Part shown: one piece after another, positions 3,798 to 57,063 of the stretch
Numbering within the stretch: the stretch's first letter is position 1
Layout of the letters: every line of letters starts with the position of its first letter
Made by a program: the position numbers and the translations under genes
Notes under the pieces: generated by a model
Told to the model about the DNA's origin: nothing
The model's input: only the letters and a program-made list of their open reading frames with translations
The model's database searches: none
From: Alphaproteobacteria bacterium
GTDB lineage: Bacteria > Pseudomonadota > Alphaproteobacteria > RF32 > CAG-239
DNA length: 64,000 bases
NCBI GenBank assembly: GCA_017939155.1
Contig: JAGAZZ010000044.1
Span: 92,344-156,343, forward strand
Reading direction: 5' to 3'

Positions 3798-6700
3798 ATG
3801 AATAACTTTATGTTTGCAGGCAAGTCTATGAAAATAAAAAGAAAAATATTTGTAATGGCAGTAGCCGTTTTGTCCTCTTTAGCCTTTACTGTGCAAGCTC
3901 AAGGCGAAAGAATAACGGTTGCTGAGGCGTATTATGAACTTGCCAAACAAAATAATATGGGAAAAATCGAAAGGTTGCAGCATCGCGGCTATTCAATAGA
4001 AAGTGTTGATAAAAATGGCAATAACGCTGTTTGCTTAGCTGTGATAAATGAGAACAAACCCGCCTATAAACTATTGGTGTCTTATGGGGCAAAGCCAAAA
4101 CCGGTATGTCTTAATAATGTTTCAAAAAGGGTATATCAACGTTTCTTTGGTGCACTGCCGGAGCAAAATACCGCTAAAGTTTATATCCCCGATGAACCTT
4201 ATATGATAGGTGCCGCTGTTCTTGGTGCCGGCGCTGTTGCCGCGGCTTTTGCTCTAAAAGGAAGCACGGGCGGAGGCAGTGGAGATTCCGGCGATGATAA
4301 TCCGGATACTCCAAATCCGCCGACACCTGAACAGCCGGATTGTCCGGCCAACAGTACATATAATACTCAAACCAAGCTCTGCGAGTGTTGGAGTGGTTTT
4401 GGTCATTTTGGCGATGAAAAAAACTGCTATGCAACAGTTGTAAATTGTAAACACCAAAACAAAGATAAATGTAATGAATGTAATTCAGGCTTCTATTTAA
4501 GCGATAATGTCTGCTATAACCCTATCTTAAATTGTAAAACTCAAACTGGTCGGATTTGTAACGAGTGTAATAGCGGTTATGGCACGCATAACGGCGATAA
4601 AACAAAATGTTATCAAAATATAGAAAATTGCAGAATCCAACAGGAAAACAAATGTAGCCAATGTAATTCAGGCTACGGTACGTTTGGGGATGACAGCAAA
4701 TGTTATAAAAAAATAGAAAATTGTGATATTCAGATACAAGATACGTGTAGGCAGTGTGTGTCGGGATATTCTACGCTGGATTCGCCAACGGCAGATTTCT
4801 GTTATAAAGAAAATCCCTGCGCAGCCTATCCGAATACTTTTCCCAAACGCGATGGCGAAAATGTTGAGTGTATCTGTAATTATAATAAGGGATACACAGG
4901 AGAAAAAGAAAATTGCACGCAAACCGATGGCGGAAATTATCAGGAAGGTCAAGGTAATATGGAAGAGTGGAATAACTTAAACGAACTTTATTGCTCTTCA
5001 CACGGCAGATATAACATATCAACCTCAGCAGAACAACCCAAATGTATCTGCTTTGATGGGTACACAGGCGACTCTTGCGAGCGTTGCGATGAACCAAAAT
5101 ATAAAGATTTCGGCGGTTCGGGAATTTGTTACTTAAATTTGGATTGTGAAAATACCAGAGGTCCCGAGTATACTCAAGCCCAAAATAAATGTATTTGCAA
5201 AGACGGTTATTTTTCACATAATGGTAATTGCAGTCCTGTTGTTGATTGCACCGTTATCGGCGCCAACTATACGCAGGTCGAACCTGGACCGGACCCTGAA
5301 AAAGCTTGTGCTTGTAAACCCAATTTTGATGAAAATTGCGAAAACTGTTTGCCGGGTTTTGTTTTAGATAATGGCTCTTGCATCCGAACGGAATATATAT
5401 GTGATGAAAAGTGGACGGGTGAAAACTGTGATGTTTGTCCGTCACAGTATGAAATAACAGTAGACAGTAATGGTGAACATTGTGGTCAAAAATGTGCTTT
5501 AAACAGAGAGCCGATAGAAGATAATCCGGAATGTGAAAATTGTGCGCCGGGGTACGAATGGAGCAATTTAGATAAAACTTGTGTTGTGACGGAGTGTTCG
5601 TCCGGTGTTGATGGTTATATTAAAACCGAAGACGGAGCTTGCGTTTGTGATACGGCTAACGGCTGGGCAATGTCCCCGTTGGGGCGTTGCGAAAAAAAAG
5701 GACCGGATTATGTCGGCTTAAAAGACTCAAACATAAATAACAGTACCATAACGATGGAAAACGACGGCTACAGAGATGAATTTCGCGATGTCTACGGAAT
5801 GAAACCCGTGTTGGCTGAAAACGAAGACGGCACGGCAGAATATTATGATAATGTCTACAACGCCTTGGCTTCTTCTGGGCAAAAGCAAACCGCCGAAATT
5901 AATATTACAAATAAAAATACCGGCGCCAACTCTGTTTATGGCATATATTCTCCGTCAGTTATCTATAATGCAGGGGCAATCAGTAGCCAAAAGGCGCAAA
6001 CGGAAGCTACCGGAACTATCAAAATAAATGATACAAATACTTCATCAGCATTATACGGAATTTATAATGATACCTCTGATAGCATTTATAATGCTTTTGC
6101 CTATACAAATGCTTCGGGAACACTGACAGACCCATCGCAAAGCACAGCAAATGCCTCAATACTCTTAAATAAATATAATACCTCATCCGAAAATGGAACA
6201 ATTGTCAATTTGGGTAATATAACAGGTATTGAAGGGGCAGGAAATATTTATAATGCCTACGCAAACACAACGGGAGGCTCAGCCGCAAATGTTAGCGCTG
6301 ACGGATTAATTTCAATGACACATGAAGGTTCAGGAACAGTAATCGGAATAAGGGGAGATAATGCTCAAGCTCGTGTCAACAATGCTCTGTCATATTTAGA
6401 TTCGGCTGTTTCTAACGCTGTCTCAAGCGGAAAAATTATATTATCGGGAAGTGGAGATGTTTATGGTATCCATGCTAACGGAAGTGTAGCAAATAGTGAA
6501 ACACAATTTAATAAAAGTTATAATGAAGTTAATGGATTCCATAAAGATTTTCGCGCCGAAGGCTTGATTGACGTAACAACCAGCTCAGACAGAAAAGCCG
6601 CCTATGGTATTTATGTCCCGGAAGGCGGGGAAAATAAGGTTGATGTTTATAATGCTATCGGCTACAAAAGCACCGGACAAATAAAAGCCACCAATACCGG

Positions 6701-9425
6701 AGGGGGAAGTGTATTCGGTATATGGAACGGAGCGGCAACCTATATGGGTGAAAACGAAGATAAAGAAATCGCAAGAATTTATAATAATACCTATAACGCA
6801 TTTCGTTCGTCCGCTCGCTATGGAGAAGACAATGTTGCATCAGAAGGCAAGATAGAACTGGATATTTCCGGTCGTAGCACTGCTCTTCAAAATGCAGTAG
6901 GGTTATATGCGGCAGGTGATGCGTTTAATGCGTATGCTCAATCAGGGTCAGATGTTAAATTGGAATCTTTGGGAAGTATTGTCATAAATGATGCAAGCTT
7001 GACATCAAACATCGTTCTAAAAGGTATGGATGGAGAAGGGGCAACTGTTGCCAATGCTTATAGTGTTGCGCCTAAAAATACAATTAATAATAACACCTCA
7101 ACCGTCGTAAAAGGAAATATTGATATAAATGTCACCTCGCCTAAAGATGGTTCAATCGGCAGAGCCTATGGTATTTATAACGCAAAATCGGTACCGATGA
7201 TAGCAACGATATATAATGCGGCTCTTGTGAATAATACCAATACGGTTGAAGGAAAAATAAATATTACCACGCCAAAAGACCGAGATACATTTAGCAAAAT
7301 GTACGGAATTTATAGTTCAACCTATGAAAGTAACGGGGGGAATAGTGCCGAGGCACAGCCTAAAATCGTATATAACGCATATTACGGCAATGATGATAAA
7401 ACTCAAACCAAAGGTTCGGTACTTGGTGAAATTAATATAACAGCCGGAGGTAAAAGCGCGGCAAGTGATGCTGAATATTATGGTATTTATCTTGATGGCG
7501 GTACAAACGGTTTTAAGGAAAGTGCGGCATACAATGCTTATTCAAGTAATGATGCGGCAGATGTTACAGGAAAAATTAACGTTGATGTCATAGGGGGAAC
7601 CAATAGCGGAACGGCAGCCGGTATGTATGGTAAAAACGCCCGCTTATACAACGATGGCACAAAATCTACAATTACGGTAAAAGCTTCGCAATATGGCACC
7701 AATGCGTATGGTATGTTGGGTGATAGTTCATATCTCTATAATAATGCGGTTATTAATACGGAAAATAAAAATTATGCCGCTTATGGAATGAGTGCATTAA
7801 ACGGAGATGCTATAAACGATGTCAACGGCGTAATTAATGTTAACGGCAAAACGGCAAGCTATGGTATATATGTTAAATCCGATTCGGATGTCACATCAGC
7901 TAAAGCCGTAAACAAAGGCATAATAAATGTTCTAGGGGAAGGTGAAAATTATGGAATTTATGCCTCTGGTGCAAACGCAACCGTTGAAAATAAAGGTACC
8001 ATCACAATTAACGGTCAAACGTGCGATGGTAATGATTGTAATGGCGGTAAAGCAATATGGTTAGATAATGGTGCAAAGTTGGTCAATAGCGGCGTAACAG
8101 AAAGTTCGTCAAACTTAGACTTTGCAGCAATGGGCGGCGAGGTTATTCTTGATAAAGGCGGAAAATTTATAGCAAAAGAAAAAATAAGCGGAAATCTCAA
8201 TATTTCGCAAAATACAATAAAAGATACTTTTGCTACAAAAAAAATTCTGCACGATGCCATTACGGCAGAGAATATTGAAGATTTAAACGTTAATTCGCTT
8301 TCATATCTTTACGACGCTAAGCTTGTAGATAATCAAAATGGTAGTTATGACGCAGAAATGTCATTAAAAGATTTGACAACAATAATGGATAAAAGTCAGG
8401 CAAATTATCTCAACAAAAATTTCCAAAACAAAAAGAATCAGGAACTCTTTAATATCTTAACGTCTGCACGAAATGCGCAAGAAGAACAAAAAATAAGAAC
8501 TTCGGTTATGGGAACGGATATGCTCCCCAACATCGCCGAAGAAGAGCTTAAAGTGCAAAGAAGTCTTGATAAAACAATGATGGATGAGTTATTTAAAAAT
8601 AAAAATGAAGATATGCGCAAAATAGTAGGCGGAAATTTAGAATATTTAGGGCAGGATGACCGCGGCACGCTAACCGGATATGACTTGACCTCAGAGAGTA
8701 TGTACGCCCTCTATGACCAAAAGCTTGATAACAATTATCGCCTAGGTTTGGGTTTGAGCTTCACGCATACCGATACTGACTATAATAATGACTCCAGTCG
8801 TAAAAACTTTATGGTTCAAGGCTATGTCCCGTTGACTTATACAAATAATAACGGTTTAACTGCCGTAACAATGGCGCGGCTCGGCTATGCCGACGGAGAT
8901 TACAGCCGCCGAGGTTATAACCGCACCTACAAAGCCGATACCACCGAAATAACCTACGGCTTGTTAAATGAGGTTCGCTATACCATAGATTTGGGACTTG
9001 TTAATTTAACTCCGTTTGCCAGACTAAATGCTGTCGGTTGGTATATGGATTCAGCCAATGAAGATGGCGATGATTTAGCCTTAGAATTAGCCTCAAACCA
9101 TGTTTTCTCATTAGAAAGCGCATTAGGCTTGTATCTTGATAAAGAAATTGAATTTAGCGATGTAAGTAAGCTCTCAACCATCTTGGGAATAGGGTGGTAT
9201 CATGAGTTCGCCGACCCATATCGCGGTTTTGATGCAACCCACAAAGCAAGTCGGTATTCATATAGGTTGAGGGATAAAGGTCACTTAAACTCGCGCAATC
9301 GCGGTATCTTATCTGCCAAAGTTAATTACGATTATAAAGATTTTTCAATCTATGGCGAATTAATGCAATACTTGGAAGACGGACACCCGCTAAAAGTCGA
9401 AGGCGGCCTGAAATATCGTTTTTGA
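3798..9425 (+). CDS. Giant type Va autotransporter with an ankyrin repeat, Cys-rich/EGF-like modules, a YGIY-repeat passenger and a C-terminal beta-barrel
   Basis: N-terminal signal peptide (alternative start M at 3828). ANK-like DKNGNNAVCLAVINENKPAYKLLVSYGAKP. Tandem C..CNSGYG..C modules and C.C..GYTG..C EGF-like modules. Passenger with reiterated YGIY...YNA motifs. C-terminus LGLGLSF...KYRF is typical of an autotransporter translocator. Confidence 0.85.
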   Translation: MNNFMFAGKSMKIKRKIFVMAVAVLSSLAFTVQAQGERITVAEAYYELAKQNNMGKIERLQHRGYSIESVDKNGNNAVCLAVINENKPAYKLLVSYGAKPKPVCLNNVSKRVYQRFFGALPEQNTAKVYIPDEPYMIGAAVLGAGAVAAAFALKGSTGGGSGDSGDDNPDTPNPPTPEQPDCPANSTYNTQTKLCECWSGFGHFGDEKNCYATVVNCKHQNKDKCNECNSGFYLSDNVCYNPILNCKTQTGRICNECNSGYGTHNGDKTKCYQNIENCRIQQENKCSQCNSGYGTFGDDSKCYKKIENCDIQIQDTCRQCVSGYSTLDSPTADFCYKENPCAAYPNTFPKRDGENVECICNYNKGYTGEKENCTQTDGGNYQEGQGNMEEWNNLNELYCSSHGRYNISTSAEQPKCICFDGYTGDSCERCDEPKYKDFGGSGICYLNLDCENTRGPEYTQAQNKCICKDGYFSHNGNCSPVVDCTVIGANYTQVEPGPDPEKACACKPNFDENCENCLPGFVLDNGSCIRTEYICDEKWTGENCDVCPSQYEITVDSNGEHCGQKCALNREPIEDNPECENCAPGYEWSNLDKTCVVTECSSGVDGYIKTEDGACVCDTANGWAMSPLGRCEKKGPDYVGLKDSNINNSTITMENDGYRDEFRDVYGMKPVLAENEDGTAEYYDNVYNALASSGQKQTAEINITNKNTGANSVYGIYSPSVIYNAGAISSQKAQTEATGTIKINDTNTSSALYGIYNDTSDSIYNAFAYTNASGTLTDPSQSTANASILLNKYNTSSENGTIVNLGNITGIEGAGNIYNAYANTTGGSAANVSADGLISMTHEGSGTVIGIRGDNAQARVNNALSYLDSAVSNAVSSGKIILSGSGDVYGIHANGSVANSETQFNKSYNEVNGFHKDFRAEGLIDVTTSSDRKAAYGIYVPEGGENKVDVYNAIGYKSTGQIKATNTGGGSVFGIWNGAATYMGENEDKEIARIYNNTYNAFRSSARYGEDNVASEGKIELDISGRSTALQNAVGLYAAGDAFNAYAQSGSDVKLESLGSIVINDASLTSNIVLKGMDGEGATVANAYSVAPKNTINNNTSTVVKGNIDINVTSPKDGSIGRAYGIYNAKSVPMIATIYNAALVNNTNTVEGKINITTPKDRDTFSKMYGIYSSTYESNGGNSAEAQPKIVYNAYYGNDDKTQTKGSVLGEINITAGGKSAASDAEYYGIYLDGGTNGFKESAAYNAYSSNDAADVTGKINVDVIGGTNSGTAAGMYGKNARLYNDGTKSTITVKASQYGTNAYGMLGDSSYLYNNAVINTENKNYAAYGMSALNGDAINDVNGVINVNGKTASYGIYVKSDSDVTSAKAVNKGIINVLGEGENYGIYASGANATVENKGTITINGQTCDGNDCNGGKAIWLDNGAKLVNSGVTESSSNLDFAAMGGEVILDKGGKFIAKEKISGNLNISQNTIKDTFATKKILHDAITAENIEDLNVNSLSYLYDAKLVDNQNGSYDAEMSLKDLTTIMDKSQANYLNKNFQNKKNQELFNILTSARNAQEEQKIRTSVMGTDMLPNIAEEELKVQRSLDKTMMDELFKNKNEDMRKIVGGNLEYLGQDDRGTLTGYDLTSESMYALYDQKLDNNYRLGLGLSFTHTDTDYNNDSSRKNFMVQGYVPLTYTNNNGLTAVTMARLGYADGDYSRRGYNRTYKADTTEITYGLLNEVRYTIDLGLVNLTPFARLNAVGWYMDSANEDGDDLALELASNHVFSLESALGLYLDKEIEFSDVSKLSTILGIGWYHEFADPYRGFDATHKASRYSYRLRDKGHLNSRNRGILSAKVNYDYKDFSIYGELMQYLEDGHPLKVEGGLKYRF

Positions 9426-9562: not shown

Positions 9563-10066
9563 ATGCAACGGCATTATTTGGCAGACATAATAGAACCGGT
9601 AGTTGAAAAGCTCGGCTACGAGGTTGTTCGGATTCTGACAATCGGTGAGGCAAACCCGACTTTGCAGATTATGATTGAGCACAAAAATTATGAAGAAGAG
9701 TTAACCGTGGATAACTGTGCCGAAGTCAGCCGAGCTGTTTCTGCCACATTGGATGAATTAGACCCGATAGAAAACCGCTACACGCTTGAAGTCAGCTCAC
9801 CGGGGCTTGACCGTCCGCTGACAAAACCTGAACACTTTGAGCGTTACAAAGGTTATCTTATCAAGCTTGAAACGCTTGAACCGGTTGAAAAACGCAAACG
9901 TTTTAAAGGCACAATCAAAGAAGTTGCCGCTGATAACAATGTTATGCTTGAAATGGAAAACATTACATATTCCATTCCTTTTGCTAATATTGCCAAAGCC
10001 AAAATTATTATAACCGACGAACTATGGGAACAATTCTTAAAATCCCAAAAAACGCCGAAAGCTTAA
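9563..10066 (+). CDS. rimP: Ribosome maturation factor RimP
   Basis: MQRHYLADIIEPVVEKLGYEVV... is RimP-like. AAGGAG RBS lies 7 nt upstream of ATG 9563, which is preferred over ORF-track start 9509. First gene of the nusA-infB operon. Confidence 0.85.
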   Translation: MQRHYLADIIEPVVEKLGYEVVRILTIGEANPTLQIMIEHKNYEEELTVDNCAEVSRAVSATLDELDPIENRYTLEVSSPGLDRPLTKPEHFERYKGYLIKLETLEPVEKRKRFKGTIKEVAADNNVMLEMENITYSIPFANIAKAKIIITDELWEQFLKSQKTPKA

Positions 10067-11616: not shown

Positions 11617-12201
11617 ATGTCAAGAGAAACGATTGAACGTAAATGTATTTTAGACGGAACCGTCAAGCCGCAAAGCGAGTTGCTTCGCTTTGTTGAGCTT
11701 AACAATACCCTCCTGCCTGATTTTAATAAAAAACTCCCCGGCAAAGGAATGTACATCACGAACAATCGTTTCTCCTTAGAAAAAGCCTTAGAAAAGAAGC
11801 TATTTCATAAAGTTAGCCGCCATAATTTAAAAATTGCGGAAAATTTTGTAGAAACAATCGAAGAGCTAATAAAACAAAAAGCACTTGAAACACTTAATTT
11901 AGCGCGCAAATCAGGTGCGCTGGTCACAGGTTTTGAAAAAGTAAAAGAGGCAGTCAAAAAAAATCAAGTCAAGTTTATTATAGAAGCAACAAATGCCGGA
12001 ACGGACGGAAAAGAAAAAGTGGCATTATTTGCTAAAAATATTGAAATATTTAATTTATTTAGTATAGATGAATTAGATATGTGCTTAAATAAAGAAAATA
12101 CGGTTCATATCGCAATCTTAAAAAGCGATATAGCCGTTATGGTGTATCAAAATTTAAAAAGGTATCAAAACTTTTTATCAGACGGAGAAGATAATAAATG
12201 A
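11617..12201 (+). CDS. YlxR (DUF448)-L7Ae (YlxQ-like) fusion RNA-binding protein
   Basis: N-terminal RKCI..G..ELLRFV...GKG.Y YlxR signature; C-terminal L7Ae-like [10 protein letters not shown]...[11 protein letters not shown]. Stop overlaps infB start (ATGA). Confidence 0.75.
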
Positions 12202-15121: not shown

Positions 15122-15559
15122 ATGTTTAAAAATTTTGTTTCTGAATTTAAAAAATTTGCGATGCGCGGCAATGTGATAGATATGGCCGTCGGTATCATTA
15201 TCGGTGCCGCTTTCGGCAAAATTGTCGATTCGCTTGTAAAAGATGTCTTAATGCCGCCGATAGGGCTTTTGTTAGGCAAGGTTGATTTTTCTGATTTGAA
15301 GTTGGTCTTGACCTCGGGTGAAAATCCGGTTTCGATTAATTATGGCTTGTTTATCAATGCGTTAATCAGTTTTATAATCGTGGCGTTTGCGGTGTTCATC
15401 TTGATTAAGGCGATTAATAAGTTGCAAGAAAAGATGACAAAAGAAGAAGCTGTGGAGCAAGTCGCCGCTGAACCGACCACCAAAACTTGCCCCTATTGTT
15501 GCACAGAAATTCCGGTTAAAGCTTGCCGTTGCCCGCATTGCACCTCGGAATTAAAATAA
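15122..15559 (+). CDS. mscL: Large-conductance mechanosensitive channel MscL with a C-terminal 4-Cys zinc-ribbon extension
   Basis: [39 protein letters not shown] is the MscL signature. C-terminus carries CPYCC...CRCPHC. Confidence 0.9.
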
Positions 15560-15578
15560 TTTTTCAAAACTCTAAAAT

Positions 15579-15602
15579 GCCGCCCAATAGGGCGGTTTTT
15601 TA
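15579..15602 (+). terminator. Intrinsic terminator after mscL
   Basis: CCGCCC-AATA-GGGCGG hairpin followed by T6. Confidence 0.7.
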
Positions 15603-15739
15603 TAGGCTGAAAATAATCTTCCCGATTCGCAAAAAATATTCTTCCCCCGTCATCCCTCTCAAACGCTCTTCTATTATAGTCATCCCCCCCGAGTCATTAC
15701 GAGGCGCATGGCGTCAGCCATACGCAACCGTGGCAAACT

Positions 15740-16010
15740 TCTCTTAGTGTTGCTAGGCTTTAGCCGCGGCAACACTTAGTTGTTCGTACAAGTAGAAAGG
15801 CAACGCCTTTCGTAACGGTACAATCCATAACTTATGCGTTAGCATTCCTTATCTAATCATAGCGACGCAACACTTAGTTGTTCGCGCAAGTAGAAGCGAA
15901 GCTTCGTAGCGGCGCAATCCATAATCCGGTGACGTTAGTCACACAAATTTTAACAAAATAAAGCAAAGTTTCTCCATAACTTGTGACCCTCGTCACACAA
16001 ATTCTCTTTC
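15740..16010. repeat. Cluster of degenerate direct repeats (~75 bp, 2-3 copies) with internal hairpins in the 600-bp non-coding region upstream of the second autotransporter
   Basis: GCAACACTTAGTTGTTCG..CAAGTAGAA..TTCGTA.CGG..CAATCCATAA occurs at ~15768 and ~15866. The tail CCATAAC..GTGAC....GTCACACAAATT is repeated at ~15905 and ~15975. Hairpins are conserved by compensatory changes (AAGGC-AAC-GCCTT vs GAAGC-GAA-GCTTC). Confidence 0.6.
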
Positions 16011-16104
16011 TCCCAACATACTGAATAAATAAAAAAAATCCGCCGCAAGCGGCACCAAACAAAAAAAAATTTCAAAAAAATTTTTTTTATTAACCAAATC
16101 TTTA

Positions 16105-16118
16105 CCCCCCCCCCCCCC
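16105..16118 (+). promoter_or_regulatory. Homopolymeric C14 tract ~48 bp upstream of the autotransporter start codon, flanked by A9/A7/T8 tracts; candidate slipped-strand phase-variation element
   Basis: 14 consecutive C at 16105..16118, between A/T tracts and a TAATAG -10-like hexamer. Confidence 0.55.
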
Positions 16119-16166
16119 GTAGGATTTTTAATAGAGAATCAAATATTTAACTAAAGGAATTGAACT

Positions 16167-19100
16167 ATGAAATACACCGCTGCCGCCCTCGGATGTCTAA
16201 ACGCAAGATACCGTGCCGTCCTCAAAAAATGCCTCCTCATCAACCTCGGCTTCTTCGCTCTTACTCATCCGATGATTTGTCACGCGGCAGATACGATTAT
16301 TACGGAAGATGTGACCCTAAATGCAGATGACCTAACCGCAGATGAGGGTTCAAAAATTATTAATCAAGGTTCAACAATTAATCTCACCGGCGGAACAATA
16401 AATACTGAAATTAGCCACCGAAAAGTTGATGGTAAAGATGGAGAAATTAATATTGTTTCAGAAAGCAATGTATCCAATGCAGTTGGTGACCCAACTGGAA
16501 AAAGTGGGCCTTTCATTGGTGGAGGAATACTTAAGGTCGAACAGCAGGCTGAGTTTACAAATAACGGATTTATGGGTGGAAGTAGCATAAATAACTATGG
16601 GACAATAGTAAATAATGGATATTGGAATAGCTATCAGAAACTTGATTACATAAACCATACTGGAGCAACGCTAATTAATGAAGAAAATGCATATCTATAT
16701 AGTGGACCACGCAACGAGGGAATTATAAAAAATAAAGGTAAGTGGGCGAGTATGGCATATAATGATGCAGGAGGGGAATTTGAAAATAGTGGTACAATCA
16801 CATGGCAGACATATAATTATCAGGGGGCAAAGTTTACCAATACTGATACAGGAAATGCAAACGGTATATATAACTACGGCTCTGGAGAAAATGAAGGAAC
16901 AATAAGCTATGTGGAAAATGGAGGAATGAGCACTAGCGATAAACTATTAAATAAAGAAGCCTCTTTTTCTAATAGCGGAACAATAGAAAGCAATGTTCAA
17001 AATTATGGAGGAACTTTCAAAAACACAGGTATCATAAAAGAAGGGATTAATAATTCTGATAAAGTAATAATAGAAGGAGGCGTTGTTGAACAAGGAATTA
17101 AGTCAAATACAGGAACTATCCAAATATCCGGTGGTACTATAAAAGGTTATACATACAATTCCGGCACAATGGATATAACGGGAGGGGAACTCCTTGGAAC
17201 TTTAAGCACTTATAGCAATAAAGCAAATGTTACAACATCGGCAGATTTTCTCAAAGGTGATATTTATAATTCTTATGGTGGCACGATAAATCTAACCGGT
17301 GGTACTTTATCCCAGCAATTACAAGGAAGCGGAGGTATTTTAAATATCACCGGTGATGTCAAAAATGCAAGCAATATTAACCAACAAGAGCTCAATATCA
17401 TCGAAAATGCCACACTAACCTCAGACGCGGAAGCCATAGTTGTTGCCGATAACACTATCACAAATGATGGTACACTAGACCTCACCGGTGGCACCAACAC
17501 CAACGCCATCACAGGCGAGGGCACGGTTACAGTTTCCGGCGACGTTACCAACAATGCGGCAATAGACCAAAACAATGTAAATATAGAATCTGGCAAATCC
17601 TTAGCTAATAATAACACCATAACGGCTGATGTCACAAACAATGGCAGTTTGGACAATAATAACGGAACAATTAACGGTATTGTAACTAACAATTCTTCAA
17701 TTTACGGTGCTGTCGGTACAATCAATGGTAAATTAATCAATAATGCTGACGCAATTATTAATGATATGTTTCAAAGTTCAAAACTCAATGGCAATCTTGA
17801 AAATGCCGGAACAGTAGATATGTCGGGTATTATCACCGGTGATGTCACAAACAAAGACGGTGGTTTTATCAAATATATCAAACAAGTAGATGGTAATGTA
17901 ACAAATGAAACCGGCGGAACAATTAAGACTATAGGTACTCTGAATGGAGATTTGCTAAATGAAACCGGCGCATTTTTAACGGATGAGCAAGGTAGCGTAT
18001 ATAGTAATATAAAAGGAACTCTGACAAATAATGGCACGATTGAGATGAAGAATTCATACAATGCAATAAATATAGGCAATAGTGAAACCAAAACCGGAGA
18101 TTTTATTAATAACGGAATTGCTAAATTTATACAAGGAACGATTTATGGAAATCTTATTAATGGTGAAAATACCGTTATTGAAGCAACGTATGGAAGTAAT
18201 GTTTATGGCGGATTTGATAATAAGGGAACATATACGGGCGGTCTGAATATCACGGGGGACGACCTCACTAAAAATTATATCAACAATGAAGGCACAATAA
18301 AACTTGATATGTATGGCAACACTTCTTTAAAAGGAACTATTAATAATGCCGAAGGAGCGATTATCGGTGTAAAAAATGAAAACTATCAAGGACAAAATGG
18401 TGGATATAGTGTCAATAATGCCATCATAAATAATAGCGGTACGATTAGCGGTATCGGGTCAGGAAATAATATCCAAGTCAAAAATGAAACAACAGGTGAG
18501 ATAGAATTCGGTGCAGGCAGTCGCTCAGGCACAATAAATAACAAAGGTACTATAAAAATATACGATGGAATATGGACAGTTTCCGAAGATGGAATTCAAA
18601 ATTCTAATAAATTTACCATACAGAATGGTGGTGTTTATGGTAGTGGAAAATTTGTAAATAAAGATGGTGGTCAGCTCAATATCTTATCAACATGGGGTCC
18701 TGATTTTCGAGTCGCTCTCGAAAACGCCGGAACAGTCAATAACGCAGGTACAATAACAGGCCCAAGCGTTACTAATTCTGGCACCATAAATAATACCGGA
18801 ATAATAGCATCTCAAACCACAAACTCTGGCACAATCAACAACACCAGTCAACTTGTAGGAACAACCACAAACTCCGGCACAATCAACAACACCGGTCAAA
18901 TTCAAAGTCAGACCACAAATTCCGGCACAATTATAAATAAAGCCGGCAGCACACAGACAAACACAACCCGCAACGAATCGACCGGCACCATTATTATGGA
19001 AGCAGATAGCCACATGAGCGGAACGTGGTATAATAAAGGGAAAATAGAAAACCATAGTAACCAAAATCAAAATATGTATTTTGAAAACCAAGAAGGCGGA

Positions 19101-21953
19101 AATTTCCAAAACTTTGGCACGATAGCCGGAGGTTCTGCCCTTTATAATCGCGCAGGCGCTACCTTAACAAATGAAACAACCGGCGTAATTGATGCTGGCT
19201 ATATGGAAAATAGCGGTACGTTAAACAATGCCGGCACAATAAAAAGGACTGTTTCTAACATCGGAATATTAGAAAACACCGGTCTAATCGAACCATCAGC
19301 CGGAAATGCTGTACTAAACCAATCCACCGGTATATTAACAAACAAAGGTACCATAAATACCCATGTTTCAAATAATGGTAAATTAGAAAACATCGGCAAA
19401 ATCGCTTATAATGCAACCGAAAGCTCAAAAAGCGCTATTGTAAACTATGCCACCGGCACGCTCACCAACAAAGGCACTATCGGCTATTTGAGCGAAGAAG
19501 AGGGCATATTAAGCCAGTTTGTAAATATGGGCACAGCGACAAACGAAGAAAACGGCATAATTTCAGCCGAGCAAATCATTAATAATAAAGATGCTGAGTT
19601 GACCTCTTTAGCCGACAAGCTTATCACCGCTGATAACACCATCACAAACGCTGGAACCCTGACTTTGACCTCCGGCACCAACGCGAATCGCCTTGTTAAC
19701 ACAACAACTTCCGAGGGCGAGGTCATCAAAGGCACGCTTAATATCGCAGGCAACGTCACTAACAACGCAACAATCGAGCAAAAAGCCTTAAACGTGAACA
19801 AACAGGCAATATTGACCAATGCGGAAAACATTAACGTTGAAAGTGTCACCAACTCCGGCACAATAAACAACGACTCCGGAACCCTCACCACTAACGAACT
19901 CGTTAACCAAGAGGGCGCAGAACTCATCACTTCTGCTGAAAATATCATCACGGCTGACAACACAATCCAAAACGCCGGAACCGTAACCCTCACCGGTGGC
20001 ACCAACGCCAACTATATCACCGGCACAGGTAGTGTTGCTATCACCGGCAACGTCACCAACAACGCAGAAGTGACGCAAAAAGCAGTTAACATCGCTCAAA
20101 CCGGCGCCTTAACAACGTCCGCTGACAGTTTGCACCTCACCGATTCGCTTGCCAACGACGGCGCGTTAACCTTGACCTCCGGAACCAACGCCAACACCAT
20201 TTCCGGCACCGGCTCAACCACTATCGCAGGCAATATCACCAACAACGCAGAAGTGACGCAAAAAGCCGTTAACATCGCTCAAATCGGCGCCTTAACAACG
20301 TCCGCAGATACACTGCACCTCACCGATTCGCTGACCAACGACGGCACGTTAACCTTGACTTCCGGCACAAACACCAACACCATCACCGGTCTGGGCAAAA
20401 TCGCTATTTTAGATAATTTTGACCTCGGCACCGGCACAATTTCCGGCAACACGGTTGAAGTTGAAAGCGGTACCTTAAAAATGAGCCAAAATAACAATTT
20501 TGACAACACCGCAACTCTAAAGATTAATCAAGGGGTAACTTTTGACCTCAATGACCATACGGCAACCCTCAAAGAAGCAAATTTTGCCACCGGTTCAGTC
20601 TTAAAGCTGAATGTAAACGCACTTAATAATCATGGAACGCTCAACGCCAACACCATAACCGTTGAAAATGGCGCAACCTTAAAAGCCACCTTGGCTCAAG
20701 GTCTGGTCGGTTATGGCAAAACGGCTGAAATTAACCTCTTAAATGCTGAAAATAAAGACTTTAATAACTTTAACGATGAGTTTGACAACAATATGTATCG
20801 TTTTGAAAAGTCCGGCAAAAATGGGGCGTATGCCATAAGCTTGGTTAAAACGGCAGCCGAAGTGGCAAAAGAAACCGGCGCTTCTAACACACAGGCTGAA
20901 ACGGCAAAAGCCTGGGTTGACGGAGAGCGCTTTAATAACGAAAAAGCTCAAGAAGTTGCCGACAAATTGGCAGACTTAGCACAAAACAATCAAGCCGAGT
21001 TTGTCGAAACGCTTGAAACGATAGCTCCAACCCAAGCCCCGGTCGTCCACGATATGACAACCGATGTCAACGACCGTATCCTCCAAGCAACCGTTGACCA
21101 CCTCAAATACGGAGCAGCCGCTAATATGTATGGTATGTCCTCCGGCGATGAGTTCAACGAGGTTTCAGTTTGGGGTAAAACCTATTTGAGCCAAACCGAC
21201 CGCGAAACAACTTCAGGCATTCAGGGCTTTAAGGTAAAATCTCACGGCGTTGTCGGCGGATTTGATAAAAAACTGAACCAAAATACCAAGTTAGGCTTAG
21301 GTTTGCAATACGACAACGCTGATATTTCAAGCCCCAATCGTAAAACCGATGTAGACAGCTTGACCGGCTTTATCTATGGTCAATATCGCCCGGATAATCG
21401 TTTTATCAACTGGCTCGCTTCATACGGTAAAGCTGATTATGATGAAAGCAAAATCGCGCTAAATCAAAAATTTGATGCAAAATATGACGCCAAAACATAC
21501 GCTTTGCAGGGGATAGCGGGATATGATTTGCACTTCAACGATAATAAAATCACGCCGGAAATCGGAATGCGCTATTACAATATCCACCGTAGCACTTATA
21601 AAGATGGCTTAGGTCAACGCATAAAAAGTCAGGATATGGACATCTTAAGAGCCGCCGCCGGTGTTTCTTTTGCCAGAGATTTTTGCTTTGGTATGTGTAA
21701 AATCACACCGGAAGTTTATTTAGGTTTAACCTATGATATTATCGCAGATAATGACAAAGCTGTCGTTATGCTCGACAACGGCGCAAGCTATACCGTAAAC
21801 GGCAAACGCTTAAATCGTCTGGGCTATGAAGCCGCAGTCGGTCTGACGGCGTCCTTGAACGATAGTATTGAAATCAGCCTCGGCTATAACGGAACTTATC
21901 GCAAAAACTACGATAACCACATGGGACTCTTTAATGTCAAATATAAGTTCTAA
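16167..21953 (+). CDS. Giant type Va autotransporter with extended signal peptide, repetitive Gly/Thr/Asn-rich passenger and C-terminal beta-barrel
   Basis: ~41-aa extended signal peptide (MKYTAAALGCLNARYRAVLKKCLLINLGFFALTHPMICHAAD). TNSGTINNT 16-aa repeats. ~60-aa TLTLTSGTNAN..GNVTNNA..QKA.NI repeats. C-terminus LGLGLQYD...FNVKYKF is a translocator domain. Confidence 0.85.
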   Translation: MKYTAAALGCLNARYRAVLKKCLLINLGFFALTHPMICHAADTIITEDVTLNADDLTADEGSKIINQGSTINLTGGTINTEISHRKVDGKDGEINIVSESNVSNAVGDPTGKSGPFIGGGILKVEQQAEFTNNGFMGGSSINNYGTIVNNGYWNSYQKLDYINHTGATLINEENAYLYSGPRNEGIIKNKGKWASMAYNDAGGEFENSGTITWQTYNYQGAKFTNTDTGNANGIYNYGSGENEGTISYVENGGMSTSDKLLNKEASFSNSGTIESNVQNYGGTFKNTGIIKEGINNSDKVIIEGGVVEQGIKSNTGTIQISGGTIKGYTYNSGTMDITGGELLGTLSTYSNKANVTTSADFLKGDIYNSYGGTINLTGGTLSQQLQGSGGILNITGDVKNASNINQQELNIIENATLTSDAEAIVVADNTITNDGTLDLTGGTNTNAITGEGTVTVSGDVTNNAAIDQNNVNIESGKSLANNNTITADVTNNGSLDNNNGTINGIVTNNSSIYGAVGTINGKLINNADAIINDMFQSSKLNGNLENAGTVDMSGIITGDVTNKDGGFIKYIKQVDGNVTNETGGTIKTIGTLNGDLLNETGAFLTDEQGSVYSNIKGTLTNNGTIEMKNSYNAINIGNSETKTGDFINNGIAKFIQGTIYGNLINGENTVIEATYGSNVYGGFDNKGTYTGGLNITGDDLTKNYINNEGTIKLDMYGNTSLKGTINNAEGAIIGVKNENYQGQNGGYSVNNAIINNSGTISGIGSGNNIQVKNETTGEIEFGAGSRSGTINNKGTIKIYDGIWTVSEDGIQNSNKFTIQNGGVYGSGKFVNKDGGQLNILSTWGPDFRVALENAGTVNNAGTITGPSVTNSGTINNTGIIASQTTNSGTINNTSQLVGTTTNSGTINNTGQIQSQTTNSGTIINKAGSTQTNTTRNESTGTIIMEADSHMSGTWYNKGKIENHSNQNQNMYFENQEGGNFQNFGTIAGGSALYNRAGATLTNETTGVIDAGYMENSGTLNNAGTIKRTVSNIGILENTGLIEPSAGNAVLNQSTGILTNKGTINTHVSNNGKLENIGKIAYNATESSKSAIVNYATGTLTNKGTIGYLSEEEGILSQFVNMGTATNEENGIISAEQIINNKDAELTSLADKLITADNTITNAGTLTLTSGTNANRLVNTTTSEGEVIKGTLNIAGNVTNNATIEQKALNVNKQAILTNAENINVESVTNSGTINNDSGTLTTNELVNQEGAELITSAENIITADNTIQNAGTVTLTGGTNANYITGTGSVAITGNVTNNAEVTQKAVNIAQTGALTTSADSLHLTDSLANDGALTLTSGTNANTISGTGSTTIAGNITNNAEVTQKAVNIAQIGALTTSADTLHLTDSLTNDGTLTLTSGTNTNTITGLGKIAILDNFDLGTGTISGNTVEVESGTLKMSQNNNFDNTATLKINQGVTFDLNDHTATLKEANFATGSVLKLNVNALNNHGTLNANTITVENGATLKATLAQGLVGYGKTAEINLLNAENKDFNNFNDEFDNNMYRFEKSGKNGAYAISLVKTAAEVAKETGASNTQAETAKAWVDGERFNNEKAQEVADKLADLAQNNQAEFVETLETIAPTQAPVVHDMTTDVNDRILQATVDHLKYGAAANMYGMSSGDEFNEVSVWGKTYLSQTDRETTSGIQGFKVKSHGVVGGFDKKLNQNTKLGLGLQYDNADISSPNRKTDVDSLTGFIYGQYRPDNRFINWLASYGKADYDESKIALNQKFDAKYDAKTYALQGIAGYDLHFNDNKITPEIGMRYYNIHRSTYKDGLGQRIKSQDMDILRAAAGVSFARDFCFGMCKITPEVYLGLTYDIIADNDKAVVMLDNGASYTVNGKRLNRLGYEAAVGLTASLNDSIEISLGYNGTYRKNYDNHMGLFNVKYKF
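20052..20411 (+). repeat. In-frame near-identical tandem repeat, 180-bp unit (~2 copies plus diverged flanking copies), inside the autotransporter passenger
   Basis: AACAACGCAGAAGTGACGCAAAAAGC recurs at 20058 and 20238, and the surrounding ~180 bp are nearly identical. Confidence 0.8.
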
Positions 21954-21960
21954 AAAATCA

Positions 21961-21989
21961 CCCCCGTTCAAAAAACGGGGGTATTTCTT
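21961..21989. terminator. Bidirectional intrinsic terminator between the autotransporter and the convergent membrane-protein gene
   Basis: CCCCCG-TTCAAAAAA-CGGGGG hairpin; T-rich on + strand and T-run on - strand. Confidence 0.65.
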
Positions 21990-37744: not shown

Positions 37745-38216
37745 ATGAAATATATTTTATTTGTAATAATGTTAATGTTTTCATTTATTGTAAATGCTGA
37801 AGCAAAAAAAAGATAGTATAGAAGAGGCTAAGTTACAGGCAGAAGTATTAAGCAAAGAATGTTATGCGAAAACAGTGGAACCCGTATGGGATAGCTTTTT
37901 TTATAATGATGAAATAAAGAAGGCTTATAAAAATAGATATAACCGTGCTTAGAAAAAATTATTATTGCAAAAATTAAAGAAAAATCCCCCCCCTGAAAAT
38001 GCCAAAAAAATGATAAAAGCGTTAAATGAAATAAAACAGGGAATGTTAGAATTTTATGGTGTTATGTATAGTCAAGAAGATACAGGTTTTTATGGACGCA
38101 CAGTAAATGATATGGAGCTAGGACGCCGCTATGAGCAGATTTTAAACGACGTCCTTCTCTATCAGAGTACTTATACTAATGGTAAAAAGGAAGACTTACT
38201 TCCTCAGGTCTCTTAG
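37745..38216 (+). pseudogene. Disrupted gene for a small secreted protein (frameshift at A8 tract plus in-frame TAG), containing A8 and C8 homopolymers
   Basis: Signal-peptide ORF MKYILFVIMLMFSFIVNAEAKKR stops after the A8 tract 37804..37811. Removing one A continues the frame to TAG 37950, after which the same frame continues as ORF 37965..38216 across C8 at 37987..37994. Confidence 0.45.
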
Positions 38217-56178: not shown

Positions 56179-57063
56179 TTAATTTGTCTCATCAATCCCG
56201 ATATAGGATTTGAAACGCGTTAAATTAGCCTGATACGCCAAAACCCGTTCACTGATACCGTAGTTCAGATAATGAAGCTTTAAGATGTCTTTGTAGCCTT
56301 TGTTAACCAGCAAAAACAAAGCTTCGTCACTAAGCGGATGTTTGTCGACATATAAAGCGAGAAGCTTTTTGTCACCATGCTTGGCAAGATGTCGCTGGAT
56401 AAAGCTTGGTATGTAGTGATGGGCAAAATAAACCTGCAAATAGTCGATATTGTCGTCCGTAATCAGACTTTCCAAGGTGTTGTTGCTAACCTCACAATGG
56501 CTAACTAAAATCTCGAAAAGCGCCAAATTTTTACTCCTGATAATAATCTGCTCTTGATGGGGGGGTAAACCATTGCCGAACGTAATGGCGGGAACATAAG
56601 CTGTAAATAAATCGCAATTCTGCATTTGTAGCAGGTAGTCTACCGTACAAGGGTAGAAAGATTGACGATATTTTGCAACAAATTTAAGTCGCTCGTTTTT
56701 ATCATGTATCCCCTTAAAGAAGGCAAGTTGGGCATCTTTATCAAGGGGGACGGTCTGATTAAGCACATCATAAAGAAAAAGACTTCCGCTTAAGGCAATA
56801 AGCATATGATGTCCGACATTTTTGCAACACCCGAATTTCTTGATATAAGCGGCAACAAGGTTCTCATCCTTTTTGACATATTCCTCTAAAAACATCATCT
56901 CAAAAGCTTGCGGCAAATGATAGTCAAGCACAAATTTTTCAAGAAAATCCTTAGAACAACATTGACATTTGATAACATACTCAAGATATTCGAGCGGAAT
57001 ATCCTGTCCGAAATACCGATACAGCCAAACAGCGCGTTTAGCCTTTTTTAGTTCTCTTTTCAT
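56179..57063 (-). CDS. Hypothetical 294-aa protein, orphan
   Basis: Clean ORF with no signal peptide, terminator hairpin AGCTTCCGAA-TAT-TTCGGAAGCT at 56143..56165, internal C7 tract (G7 on + at 56559..56565). Confidence 0.5.
   Translation of the reverse strand: MKRELKKAKRAVWLYRYFGQDIPLEYLEYVIKCQCCSKDFLEKFVLDYHLPQAFEMMFLEEYVKKDENLVAAYIKKFGCCKNVGHHMLIALSGSLFLYDVLNQTVPLDKDAQLAFFKGIHDKNERLKFVAKYRQSFYPCTVDYLLQMQNCDLFTAYVPAITFGNGLPPHQEQIIIRSKNLALFEILVSHCEVSNNTLESLITDDNIDYLQVYFAHHYIPSFIQRHLAKHGDKKLLALYVDKHPLSDEALFLLVNKGYKDILKLHYLNYGISERVLAYQANLTRFKSYIGIDETN

What the first reader, a model, noticed from the sequence alone, without database searches (positions are those of the whole stretch)
16105..16118. 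C14 homopolymer in the promoter region of the 1928-aa autotransporter: likely slipped-strand phase-variation switch
Fourteen consecutive C sit 48 bp upstream of the ATG, embedded in A9/A7/T8 tracts and just 5' of a TAATAG -10-like element. Any -35 element must lie across or upstream of the tract, so C-tract length would change -35/-10 spacing. Tracts of this length are hypermutable. This is the arrangement known from Bordetella fim promoters (poly-C) and Neisseria opc/porA, giving ON/OFF or graded expression of a major surface antigen. Nothing else in the window has this signature.
Basis: partly seen in the sequence, partly recalled or inferred. Interest (0 to 1): 0.75.

Follow-up and report, generated by a model that had tools for sequence, protein, structure and literature searches.

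The report
Variable poly-C tract before autotransporter gene
A run of 14 cytosines sits just upstream of a large surface-protein (autotransporter) gene in an uncultured gut alphaproteobacterium, and a second strain has 11 there, so it is probably a slippage-prone expression switch of a well-known kind seen here in a little-studied lineage.

Summary
C14 lies at 16105-16118, 48 nt before the ATG of an intact 1928-aa type Va autotransporter, with A9, A7 and T8 runs just upstream. It is the only G/C run longer than 8 in the window. About 896 kb of related gut Alphaproteobacteria loci contain none longer than 8, and chance predicts about 4e-5 such runs.

A second strain, 98.2% identical in the flanking infB-rbfA-mscL genes, has the same promoter and the same signal-peptide DNA but C11. 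Over about 245 nt around the tract, all but two of the differences are changes in homopolymer or A/T-run length.

The autotransporter gene is an accessory insertion. Sibling species lack it, and another strain carries a different gene there. Its passenger domain drops to about 30% identity between strains.

The promoter was not mapped. No tract length gives a strict sigma-70 match. Under relaxed rules, TTTACC-N-TTTAAT has a 17-nt spacer at C11 and a 20-nt spacer at C14. An upstream CRP-like promoter that would place the tract in the 5'UTR cannot be excluded.

Verdict: a probable slipped-strand contingency locus. It is a new member of a known kind, resting on two strains and no expression data. 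Interest is moderate.

The parts
16105..16118 (+). Uninterrupted C14 homopolymer, the putative slipped-strand switch. It is C11 in strain L002.
16101..16106 (+). TTTACC, candidate -35 hexamer (4/6 to TTGACA). Its last two bases are the first two C of the tract.
   Evidence: inference from consensus, not mapped
16127..16132 (+). TTTAAT, candidate -10 (5/6, lacks the A at position 2). The spacer from TTTACC is 20 nt at C14 and 17 nt at C11.
16129..16134 (+). It would need C9 for a 17-nt spacer from TTTACC.
   Evidence: arithmetic from the sequence
16061..16088 (+). A9 / A7 / T8 runs, an A/T-rich UP-element-like stretch upstream of the candidate -35. The run lengths also differ in L002 (A8; T6ATT).
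16154..16158 (+). AAGGA ribosome-binding site, 8 nt before the ATG
   Evidence: sequence
16167..21953 (+). Intact 1928-aa type Va autotransporter gene. It has an N-terminal extended signal peptide, a repeat-rich passenger, and a PF03797 beta-barrel at residues 1668-1908.
16167..16265 (+). Signal-peptide coding segment that is 100% identical in DNA to L002. Passenger divergence begins immediately after it.
16040..16053 (.). GC-rich hairpin CCGCCGCAAGCGGC flanked by A8 and A9. It reads as a terminator only on the minus strand.
15928..15997 (+). Two TGTGA-N6-TCACA (CRP/FNR-like) palindromes 54 bp apart, at 15928-15943 and 15982-15997. With CATACT at 16017-16022 they form a possible class-II upstream promoter (rival model).
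15740..16003 (+). Array of short hairpin/repeat units. It is the left part of the accessory insertion and the recombination junction between strains.
15579..15596 (+). Intrinsic terminator of mscL, so the autotransporter is not read through from upstream

Best explanation
The C14 run is a genuine, selectively maintained, slippage-prone homopolymer. It lies in the core-promoter region of an accessory, strain-variable type Va autotransporter gene of an uncultured (ruminant) gut alphaproteobacterium. Slipped-strand mispairing during replication adds or removes C residues.

The tract fills the space between a -35-like TTTACC and a -10-like TTTAAT/TAATAG. TTTACC directly abuts the tract and is preceded by A/T-rich UP-like runs. 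The number of C therefore sets the -35/-10 spacing. The spacer is about 17 nt at C11 (predicted ON) and 20 nt at C14 (predicted OFF or low). The result would be heritable but reversible ON/OFF or graded expression of a surface protein whose exposed passenger is also antigenically divergent between strains.

Shown: the tract's existence and its extreme statistical rarity; its length polymorphism with conserved flanks; an intact downstream gene; the accessory nature of the locus. Inferred: the identity of the promoter hexamers, the effect on transcription, reversibility, and the selective agent.
For: The tract is real and unique: 4e-5 expected, and no G/C run longer than 8 in 64 kb plus 896 kb of related genomes.

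An independent assembly, L002 (GCA_017625985.1), is 98.2% identical over 1583 nt of infB-rbfA-mscL and has C11 at the same place. In the 245 nt from the hairpin to the end of the signal peptide, all but two of the differences are length changes in the C, A and T runs. An uninterrupted tract of 11 or more kept in two diverged strains, in a lineage that otherwise avoids such runs, argues for selection.

This organism uses E. coli-like promoters: the tRNA-Leu promoter is TTGACT-17-TATTAA and the tRNA-Gln promoter is TTGACA-17-TATGTA.

The best sigma-70-like match in the 200 nt upstream of the autotransporter is 7/12 at C14, the lowest of 26 scorable operon-leading genes in the window (median about 9). 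At C11 it is 9/12 with a 17-nt spacer, placed 63 nt before the ATG, where other genes have their best matches.

mscL ends in a strong terminator, so the gene needs its own promoter.

The gene is an accessory surface protein. It is absent at this site in sibling species L005/L006 and replaced by another gene in L003. Its passenger is only 30-48% identical between alleles behind an identical signal peptide. This combination of phase and antigenic variation is documented for M. catarrhalis UspA1 (PMC7302503). Tract lengths of 10-18 C are the working range of the Bordetella fim2/fim3 promoter C-stretches (PMC1891110).
Against: Only two tract lengths were seen, each a metagenome consensus. No read-level heterogeneity, transcription start or expression data exist.

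No tract length from 0 to 23 gives a promoter that meets the strict criteria. TTTAAT lacks the key A at position 2. A relaxed 9/12 match is common by chance in 40%-GC DNA.

The metagenome pattern scan returned only chance hits. Related autotransporter genes in other gut Alphaproteobacteria have no upstream tract, so the feature is not a conserved lineage trait.

Two CRP-like palindromes with a CATACT -10 candidate upstream allow a promoter that would put the tract in the 5'UTR.
Confidence: 0.5

Rival explanations
1. The real promoter lies about 110 nt further upstream. A class-II CRP/FNR-type promoter would use the palindrome TGTGACCCTCGTCACA (15982-15997) centred about 40 nt before a start near 16029-16031, with CATACT (16017-16022) as the -10. 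The C tract would then sit in a roughly 137-nt 5'UTR. It might still modulate mRNA level or translation, as the G(n) tract upstream of the uspA1 ORF alters transcription, but not through -35/-10 spacing.
For: Two of the window's three matches to TGTGA-N6-TCACA (one mismatch allowed) lie here, 54 bp apart, about five helical turns. CACACA-17-CATACT is the best sigma-70-like match upstream of the gene at C14. Both palindromes are conserved in L002. PMC7302503 documents a G(n) tract upstream of the uspA1 ORF that changes mRNA level.
Against: Three such matches against 1.18 expected is not significant (16 of 100 shuffles reach it). The palindromes are part of a local hairpin-repeat array and also occur in L003 ahead of a different gene, so they may be repeat structure rather than regulator sites. 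The match is only 7/12. No CRP/FNR-family gene was found among the window proteins scanned.
Confidence: 0.2
2. Activator-distance variant, like Bordetella fim. The C stretch occupies the -35 position of an activator-dependent promoter. Its length aligns an upstream activator or UP-element contact with the -10, rather than spacing two sigma-70 hexamers.
For: With TAATAG or TTTAAT as the -10, a 17-nt spacer at C14 puts the -35 position inside the tract (sequence). A/T-rich UP-like runs lie immediately upstream, and their lengths also vary between strains. The fim2/fim3 C-stretch lengths of 10-18 (PMC1891110) match the range seen here.
Against: No activator site or fim-box-like motif was identified next to the tract. 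No regulator is known. The idea rests on analogy.
Confidence: 0.1
3. The tract is a neutral by-product with no regulatory role. It is a homopolymer that arose in, or travelled with, the accessory island, and its length drifts by slippage.
For: Only two alleles are known. A and T runs nearby also differ, so the whole low-complexity stretch may simply be indel-prone. Homologous autotransporter genes elsewhere manage without such a tract. No canonical promoter is created at any length.
Against: Long G/C runs are otherwise absent from about 960 kb of this lineage. A neutral C11-14 tract would be expected to be interrupted or to shrink, yet it is uninterrupted in two strains 1.8% apart. Its position 48 nt before the start codon of a surface-protein gene is the classic contingency-locus position.
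Confidence: 0.17
4. The tract or its length is an assembly or sequencing artefact of a metagenome-assembled genome.
For: The window matches a MAG. Short-read consensus through 14 identical bases is error-prone.
Against: Two independent assemblies from different strains both have a long C run at exactly this position, and the 3-nt difference exceeds typical +/-1 errors. Logan contigs of SRR12529169 are 100% identical to the window wherever they overlap, although they do not cover the tract.
Confidence: 0.03

Closest known systems
Bordetella pertussis/bronchiseptica fim2, fim3, fimX promoter 'C-stretch'
   Same: A poly-C tract of similar length lies in the promoter region of a surface-structure gene. 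In B. pertussis isolates it is 10-15 C for fim2 and 13-18 C for fim3. It is polymorphic between strains, and its length influences transcript abundance (PMC1891110).
   Different: The Bordetella genes encode fimbrial subunits, not an autotransporter. Their promoters have a conserved 'fim box' and depend on BvgA (BvgA dependence from my own knowledge). No such motif or regulator was found or tested here. The host is a betaproteobacterial pathogen, whereas this is an uncultured gut alphaproteobacterium. Here the promoter is unmapped.
Moraxella catarrhalis uspA1 G(n) tract
   Same: A homopolymeric G/C tract lies upstream of the ORF of an autotransporter-class adhesin. It gives graded transcript levels: 8-10 G low and 11-12 G high in strain 195ME. 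This is combined with strong sequence variation of the exposed region and a conserved membrane anchor (PMC7302503).
   Different: UspA1 is a trimeric (type Vc) autotransporter, while this is a classical type Va protein with a PF03797 barrel. The tract is shorter (8-12 G). Switching has been shown experimentally in Moraxella but not here.
Neisseria meningitidis opc (poly-C) and porA (poly-G) promoter tracts
   Different: Opc and PorA are small beta-barrel proteins or porins. The transcription starts and hexamers are mapped there and are only inferred here.
Coding-region homopolymer switches in autotransporter genes (B. pertussis tcfA, bapC; Campylobacter capA)
   Same: Autotransporter genes are frequent targets of homopolymer-mediated phase variation. 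tcfA and bapC had the most variable tracts in B. pertussis (PMC1891110).
   Different: Those tracts are inside the ORF and act by frameshift. Here the tract is outside the ORF (no start codon upstream), so any effect must be transcriptional or act through the leader.

Membership tests
Promoter-located simple-sequence-repeat contingency locus (homopolymer phase/graded variation) | Uninterrupted G/C homopolymer long enough to be hypermutable (about 8 or more) and longer than composition predicts | tested here: met
   C14 is present. The expected number is 4e-5, and there is no other G/C run longer than 8 in the window or in 896 kb of related loci.
Promoter-located simple-sequence-repeat contingency locus (homopolymer phase/graded variation) | Lies in the intergenic region just upstream of, and co-oriented with, a gene for a surface or host-interaction function, outside the ORF | tested here: met
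   The tract is 48 nt upstream of the ATG of an intact PF03797 autotransporter. The ORF has no upstream start, and mscL is terminated at 15579-15596.
Promoter-located simple-sequence-repeat contingency locus (homopolymer phase/graded variation) | Repeat number differs between strains while the flanking sequence is conserved | tested here: met
   C14 in the window against C11 in L002, with flanks identical from the tract through the signal peptide. This rests on two strains only.
Promoter-located simple-sequence-repeat contingency locus (homopolymer phase/graded variation) | Repeat number is heterogeneous within a clonal population and switches reversibly at high frequency | not testable with these tools
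   No read-level data are available. The assemblies give one consensus each.
Promoter-located simple-sequence-repeat contingency locus (homopolymer phase/graded variation) | Tract lies between the -35 and -10, or between an activator site and the -10, of the gene's mapped promoter | tested here: inconclusive
   No strict sigma-70 match at any length from 0 to 23. The relaxed pair TTTACC-N-TTTAAT gives 17 nt at C11 and 20 nt at C14. An upstream alternative promoter is possible.
Promoter-located simple-sequence-repeat contingency locus (homopolymer phase/graded variation) | Expression level changes with repeat number | not testable with these tools
   This needs reporter fusions or transcript quantification.
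Classical (type Va) autotransporter | C-terminal 12-stranded beta-barrel translocator domain (Pfam PF03797) | tested here: met
   PF03797 matches with E 4e-41 over residues 1668-1908, covering profile positions 1-255 of 255.
Classical (type Va) autotransporter | N-terminal Sec signal peptide | tested here: inconclusive
   By inspection only. The sequence MKYTAAALGCLNARYRAVLKKCLLINLGFFALTHPMICHA/AD has a basic region, a hydrophobic core and an A-x-A-like site, and the motif is shared with many homologues. No signal-peptide predictor was available.
Classical (type Va) autotransporter | Large repeat-rich passenger between signal peptide and barrel | tested here: met
   Internal 183-nt and 48-nt repeats are present. 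Homologues are long autotransporter or beta-strand-repeat proteins. The passenger's function is unknown: there is no Pfam or NCBIfam domain in the passenger.
Bordetella fim-type promoter (C-stretch + fim box + BvgA) | Conserved fim-box motif and BvgA-dependent activation next to the C-stretch | not tested
   No fim-box search was made. The organism is unrelated and no BvgAS genes are in the window. This family is treated as a functional analogy only.

The most novel reading that the evidence does not exclude
This locus may be the first recognisable simple-sequence-repeat contingency locus in the uncultured gut Alphaproteobacteria. It would combine three layers of surface variation at one chromosomal hot spot between mscL and a lysyl-PG-synthase-like gene. 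The first is a poly-C promoter switch. The second is replacement of the autotransporter passenger behind a fixed promoter and signal-peptide cassette. The third is cargo exchange at an array of short hairpin repeats: strains with identical flanks carry different genes. This would imply pathogen-style immune or phage evasion in a commensal lineage known only from metagenomes.
Probability: 0.35. Interest if true: 0.55.

Novelty: new member of a known kind. Interest (0 to 1): 0.4.

Why it matters
Homopolymer contingency loci are textbook features of a few mucosal pathogens (Neisseria, Haemophilus, Bordetella, Campylobacter, Moraxella). In the gut-commensal papers that surfaced in my searches, phase variation is described through invertible promoters and epigenetic switches. 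No report of repeat-mediated switching in Alphaproteobacteria turned up there.

If confirmed, this would show that an uncultured gut alphaproteobacterial lineage uses slipped-strand switching on an accessory, antigenically divergent autotransporter. It would give a concrete marker, tract length at a defined site, that can be read directly from metagenomic reads to follow ON/OFF population dynamics in animals. The mechanism itself is not new.

Tried and rejected
1. A genome-contig scan with the whole autotransporter found no relative. The species representatives lack this allele.

2. A metagenome-contig scan with TTTAC-N(4-30)-CGTAGGATTTTTAATAG gave three hits, all chance matches in unrelated sequence.

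3. Exact-protein look-ups returned few useful contigs. I tried MscL, RbfA, the LPG-synthase-like protein and the autotransporter itself. Only one contig (L002) spans the promoter.

4. A protein search with the 56-aa signal-peptide region found nothing. A search with L002's partial passenger found only itself. No third tract length could be obtained.

5. I looked for a lineage-wide habit of poly-G/C tracts upstream of autotransporter genes. There is none in L088, L091, L092 or L093, and none in the syntenic loci L005-L052. I reject the idea that this is a conserved clade feature.

6. Strict sigma-70 scans of the window, of L002, and of in-silico variants C0-C23 found no promoter spanning the tract.

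7. A minus-strand 62-aa ORF (15874-16062) lies divergent from the tract. I reject it as a gene. It overlaps the hairpin array and terminator. Its ends differ in L002 (89 aa), and a 47-nt indel lies inside it.

8. Rfam gave no credible family in 15500-16250 at E up to 10.

9. I considered the C8 at 37986-37993 as a second switch. It lies inside a small secreted-protein gene that is already broken by an A8 frameshift and an in-frame stop. It is not a comparable promoter tract.

Full report
**Observation**

The window has exactly fourteen C at 16105-16118, followed by G. Forty-eight nucleotides separate the tract from the ATG at 16167. An AAGGA ribosome-binding site lies 8 nt before that ATG. The ORF runs 16167-21953 and encodes 1928 aa.

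The run is preceded by A8 (16031-38), A9 (16061-69), A7 (16074-80) and T8 (16081-88). TAATAG follows at 16129-34.

This is the only G or C run longer than 8 in the 64 kb. The runners-up are C8 at 37986, C7 at 15684 and G7 at 56559. With the window's own run statistics, the expected number of C runs of 14 or more is 4e-5.

**The gene and the organism**

The ORF carries a full-length PF03797 autotransporter beta-domain at residues 1668-1908 (E 4e-41). It also has an N-terminal extended signal-peptide-like sequence and a repeat-rich passenger. No Pfam or NCBIfam domain hints at the passenger's activity.

Upstream lie nusA, ylxR-L7Ae, infB, rbfA and mscL. mscL ends in a strong intrinsic terminator at 15579-15596. 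Downstream, convergent, are a lysyl-PG-synthase-TM-like gene, a Sel1-repeat gene and an ABC-F gene.

The MscL protein is 97% and 95% identical to those of two 'uncultured Alphaproteobacteria bacterium' mouse-gut MAGs. The next 40-odd hits are gut or rumen Alphaproteobacteria MAGs. An identical autotransporter is on record as 'MAG: autotransporter domain-containing protein [Alphaproteobacteria bacterium]' (P0001). Exact matches to the window's RbfA come from ruminant gastrointestinal metagenomes and MAGs, the project described in PMC8199421. The window is therefore a metagenome-assembled chromosome segment of an uncultured gut alphaproteobacterium.

**The locus is accessory and variable**

In the two closest species (L005, L006), mscL is followed within about 50 nt by the convergent LPG-synthase-like gene, then the Sel1 and ABC-F genes. 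The roughly 6.4 kb from about 15600 to 21985 is therefore an insertion relative to them. It consists of a repeat-rich intergenic region plus the autotransporter.

- L003 is 100% identical to L002 over 1583 nt of infB-rbfA-mscL. It diverges inside the hairpin-repeat array and carries a different gene.
- L089 carries another allele at the same site (P0002, 48% identity), next to the same LPG-synthase/Sel1/ABC-F genes.
- L002 has the same promoter and signal peptide as the window, but its passenger falls to about 30% identity straight after 33 identical residues.

**Tract-length polymorphism**

L002 (GCA_017625985.1) differs from the window at 28 of 1583 positions in the flanking housekeeping genes (98.2% identity, no gaps). 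It is a distinct strain and an independent assembly.

At the homologous position it has C11 instead of C14. I aligned the 245 nt from 16017 to the end of the signal-peptide coding region. All but two of the differences are changes in run length: A9 to A8, T8ATT to T6ATTATT, and C14 to C11. The roughly 150 nt from the tract through the signal peptide are identical. This is the signature of slippage at homopolymers on an otherwise conserved control region.

Across 895,859 bases of related gut Alphaproteobacteria loci, no G/C run exceeds 8. An uninterrupted run of 11-14 kept in two strains therefore looks maintained rather than accidental. Limitation: there are only two alleles, each a consensus.

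**Where is the promoter?**

The organism does use E. coli-like promoters. TTGACT-17-TATTAA precedes tRNA-Leu and TTGACA-17-TATGTA precedes tRNA-Gln.

A strict sigma-70 scan finds no plus-strand promoter between the mscL terminator and the ATG, either in the window (C14) or in L002 (C11). My in-silico series from C0 to C23 never creates one.

Relaxed criteria give pairs that span the tract:

| Pair | C number for a 16-18 nt spacer |
|---|---|
| TTTACC(16101-06)-N-TTTAAT(16127-32), 9/12 | C10-C12 (exactly 17 nt at C11; 20 nt at C14) |
| TTAACC-N-TAGGAT | C6-C8 |
| TTTACC-N-TAGGAT | C17-C19 |

I scored the best sigma-70-like match in the 200 nt upstream of 26 scorable operon-leading genes. The median is about 9. 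The autotransporter scores 7 at C14, the lowest of all. At C11 it scores 9, with the -35 placed 63 nt before the ATG, where other genes have theirs.

This fits a model in which L002 is ON-like and the window strain OFF-like. However, 9/12 relaxed matches are frequent by chance, and TTTAAT lacks the critical A at position 2. I treat this as suggestive only.

**Rival geometry**

Two TGTGA-N6-TCACA palindromes lie 54 bp apart in the upstream repeat array: 15928-43 with one mismatch and 15982-97 perfect. The second is centred about 40 nt before a start implied by a CATACT -10 at 16017-22. This is also the best match at C14. It resembles a class-II CRP-type promoter and would place the tract in a roughly 137-nt leader.

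The motif count is not significant: 3 matches against 1.18 expected, and 16 of 100 shuffles reach it. The palindromes belong to a family of hairpin units also present ahead of a different gene in L003. The rival is therefore weaker, but it is not excluded.

**Comparison with known systems**

The closest known systems are the Bordetella fim promoter C-stretches. These run to 10-15 C for fim2 and 13-18 C for fim3, are polymorphic among isolates, and influence transcription through their length (PMC1891110).

The M. catarrhalis uspA1 G(n) tract is also close. It lies upstream of the ORF of an autotransporter adhesin. Mutants with 8-10 G give low mRNA and 11-12 G give high mRNA. That system combines this with antigenic variation of the exposed domain (PMC7302503).

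Neisseria opc and porA (from my own knowledge) share the spacer logic. B. pertussis tcfA and bapC show that autotransporter genes are favoured targets, but through coding-region tracts (PMC1891110).

The present case meets the sequence-level criteria of a contingency locus: length, position, and strain polymorphism with conserved flanks. The functional criteria could not be tested: within-population heterogeneity, mapped promoter geometry, and expression dependence.

**Not a clade-wide habit**

Other gut alphaproteobacterial autotransporter genes share the N-terminal motif M[KR]Y..A...L..RY..VLKKC.LIN. Those I inspected (L088, L091, L092, L093) have no upstream G/C tract. The tract is a feature of this particular promoter cassette.

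**Verdict**

The tract is real, highly non-random and polymorphic between strains. It sits where a slipped-strand switch would sit, in front of an accessory, antigenically divergent surface protein.

My probabilities:

- About 0.8 that tract length modulates expression of this gene by some route. This is the sum of the spacer model, the 5'UTR/upstream-promoter model and the activator-distance model.
- About 0.5 that it does so through promoter spacing.
- About 0.2 for a 5'UTR position.
- About 0.1 for an activator-distance model.
- About 0.17 that the tract is neutral.
- About 0.03 that it is an artefact.

It is a new member of a known kind.

Noticed in passing
window 15740-16003: An array of short hairpin/repeat units lies between the mscL terminator and the autotransporter promoter. 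Direct repeats of 29, 22, 21 and 13 nt are present. The plus strand folds better than shuffles (z = -4.18), and there is no Rfam family. Repeat copies differ by changes that appear, by eye, to keep the stems paired. L002 lacks one 47-nt unit. L003, identical to L002 in the flanking genes, diverges inside the array and carries a different gene. The array looks like a recombination junction or cargo hot spot.
   Followed up: partly
window 15928-15943 and 15982-15997: Two CRP/FNR-like palindromes (TGTGA-N6-TCACA) lie 54 bp apart. These are two of only three matches in the window with up to one mismatch. They may be regulator sites or just part of the hairpin repeats.
   Followed up: partly
window 37746-38216: A small secreted-protein gene appears broken. 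Its signal-peptide ORF stops right after an A8 run (37804-37811). The rest continues in another frame with an in-frame TAG, and the window's second-longest C run (C8, 37986-37993, coding NPPPE) lies inside it. It could be a pseudogene, an A-tract frameshift switch or a MAG consensus error.
   Followed up: partly
L092 9095-10001: In another gut alphaproteobacterial MAG (GCA_965320285.1), a resolvase/invertase-family gene (PF00239) lies divergently next to an autotransporter gene (P0032). A perfect 11-nt inverted repeat (9786-9796 / 9939-9949) brackets 142 nt just upstream of the gene. This is a possible invertible promoter, that is, phase variation of a related autotransporter by a different mechanism.
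   Followed up: partly
L091 ~9824-9950 and L093 ~1590-1715: A conserved element of about 125 nt lies upstream of two orthologous giant (3323 and 3373 aa) autotransporter genes, inside otherwise diverged intergenic DNA. Its sequence is GGGGAGCTTTTAGCGGATGTCCAA...TGATTGTTGAACTCTCCG.CCACCC, ending in a terminator-like hairpin plus a T run. There is no Rfam match at gathering threshold. It may be a leader, attenuator or small RNA.
   Followed up: partly
window 16167-16265; proteins P0008, P0013, P0014, P0019, P0032, P0034: Autotransporters of gut Alphaproteobacteria share a conserved extended N-terminal motif (M[KR]Y[ST]..A...L..RY..VLKKC.LIN) ahead of the hydrophobic signal-peptide core. This resembles the extended signal peptide region of other autotransporters.
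   Followed up: no
window 3798-9425: A second autotransporter (1875 aa, PF03797) has cysteine-rich EGF-like tandem repeats (93- and 183-nt spacing, 4410-4767). It has no homopolymer tract upstream.
   Followed up: no
window 11617-12201: A YlxR (DUF448) domain is fused to an L7Ae-family domain in one 194-aa protein between nusA and infB.
   Followed up: no
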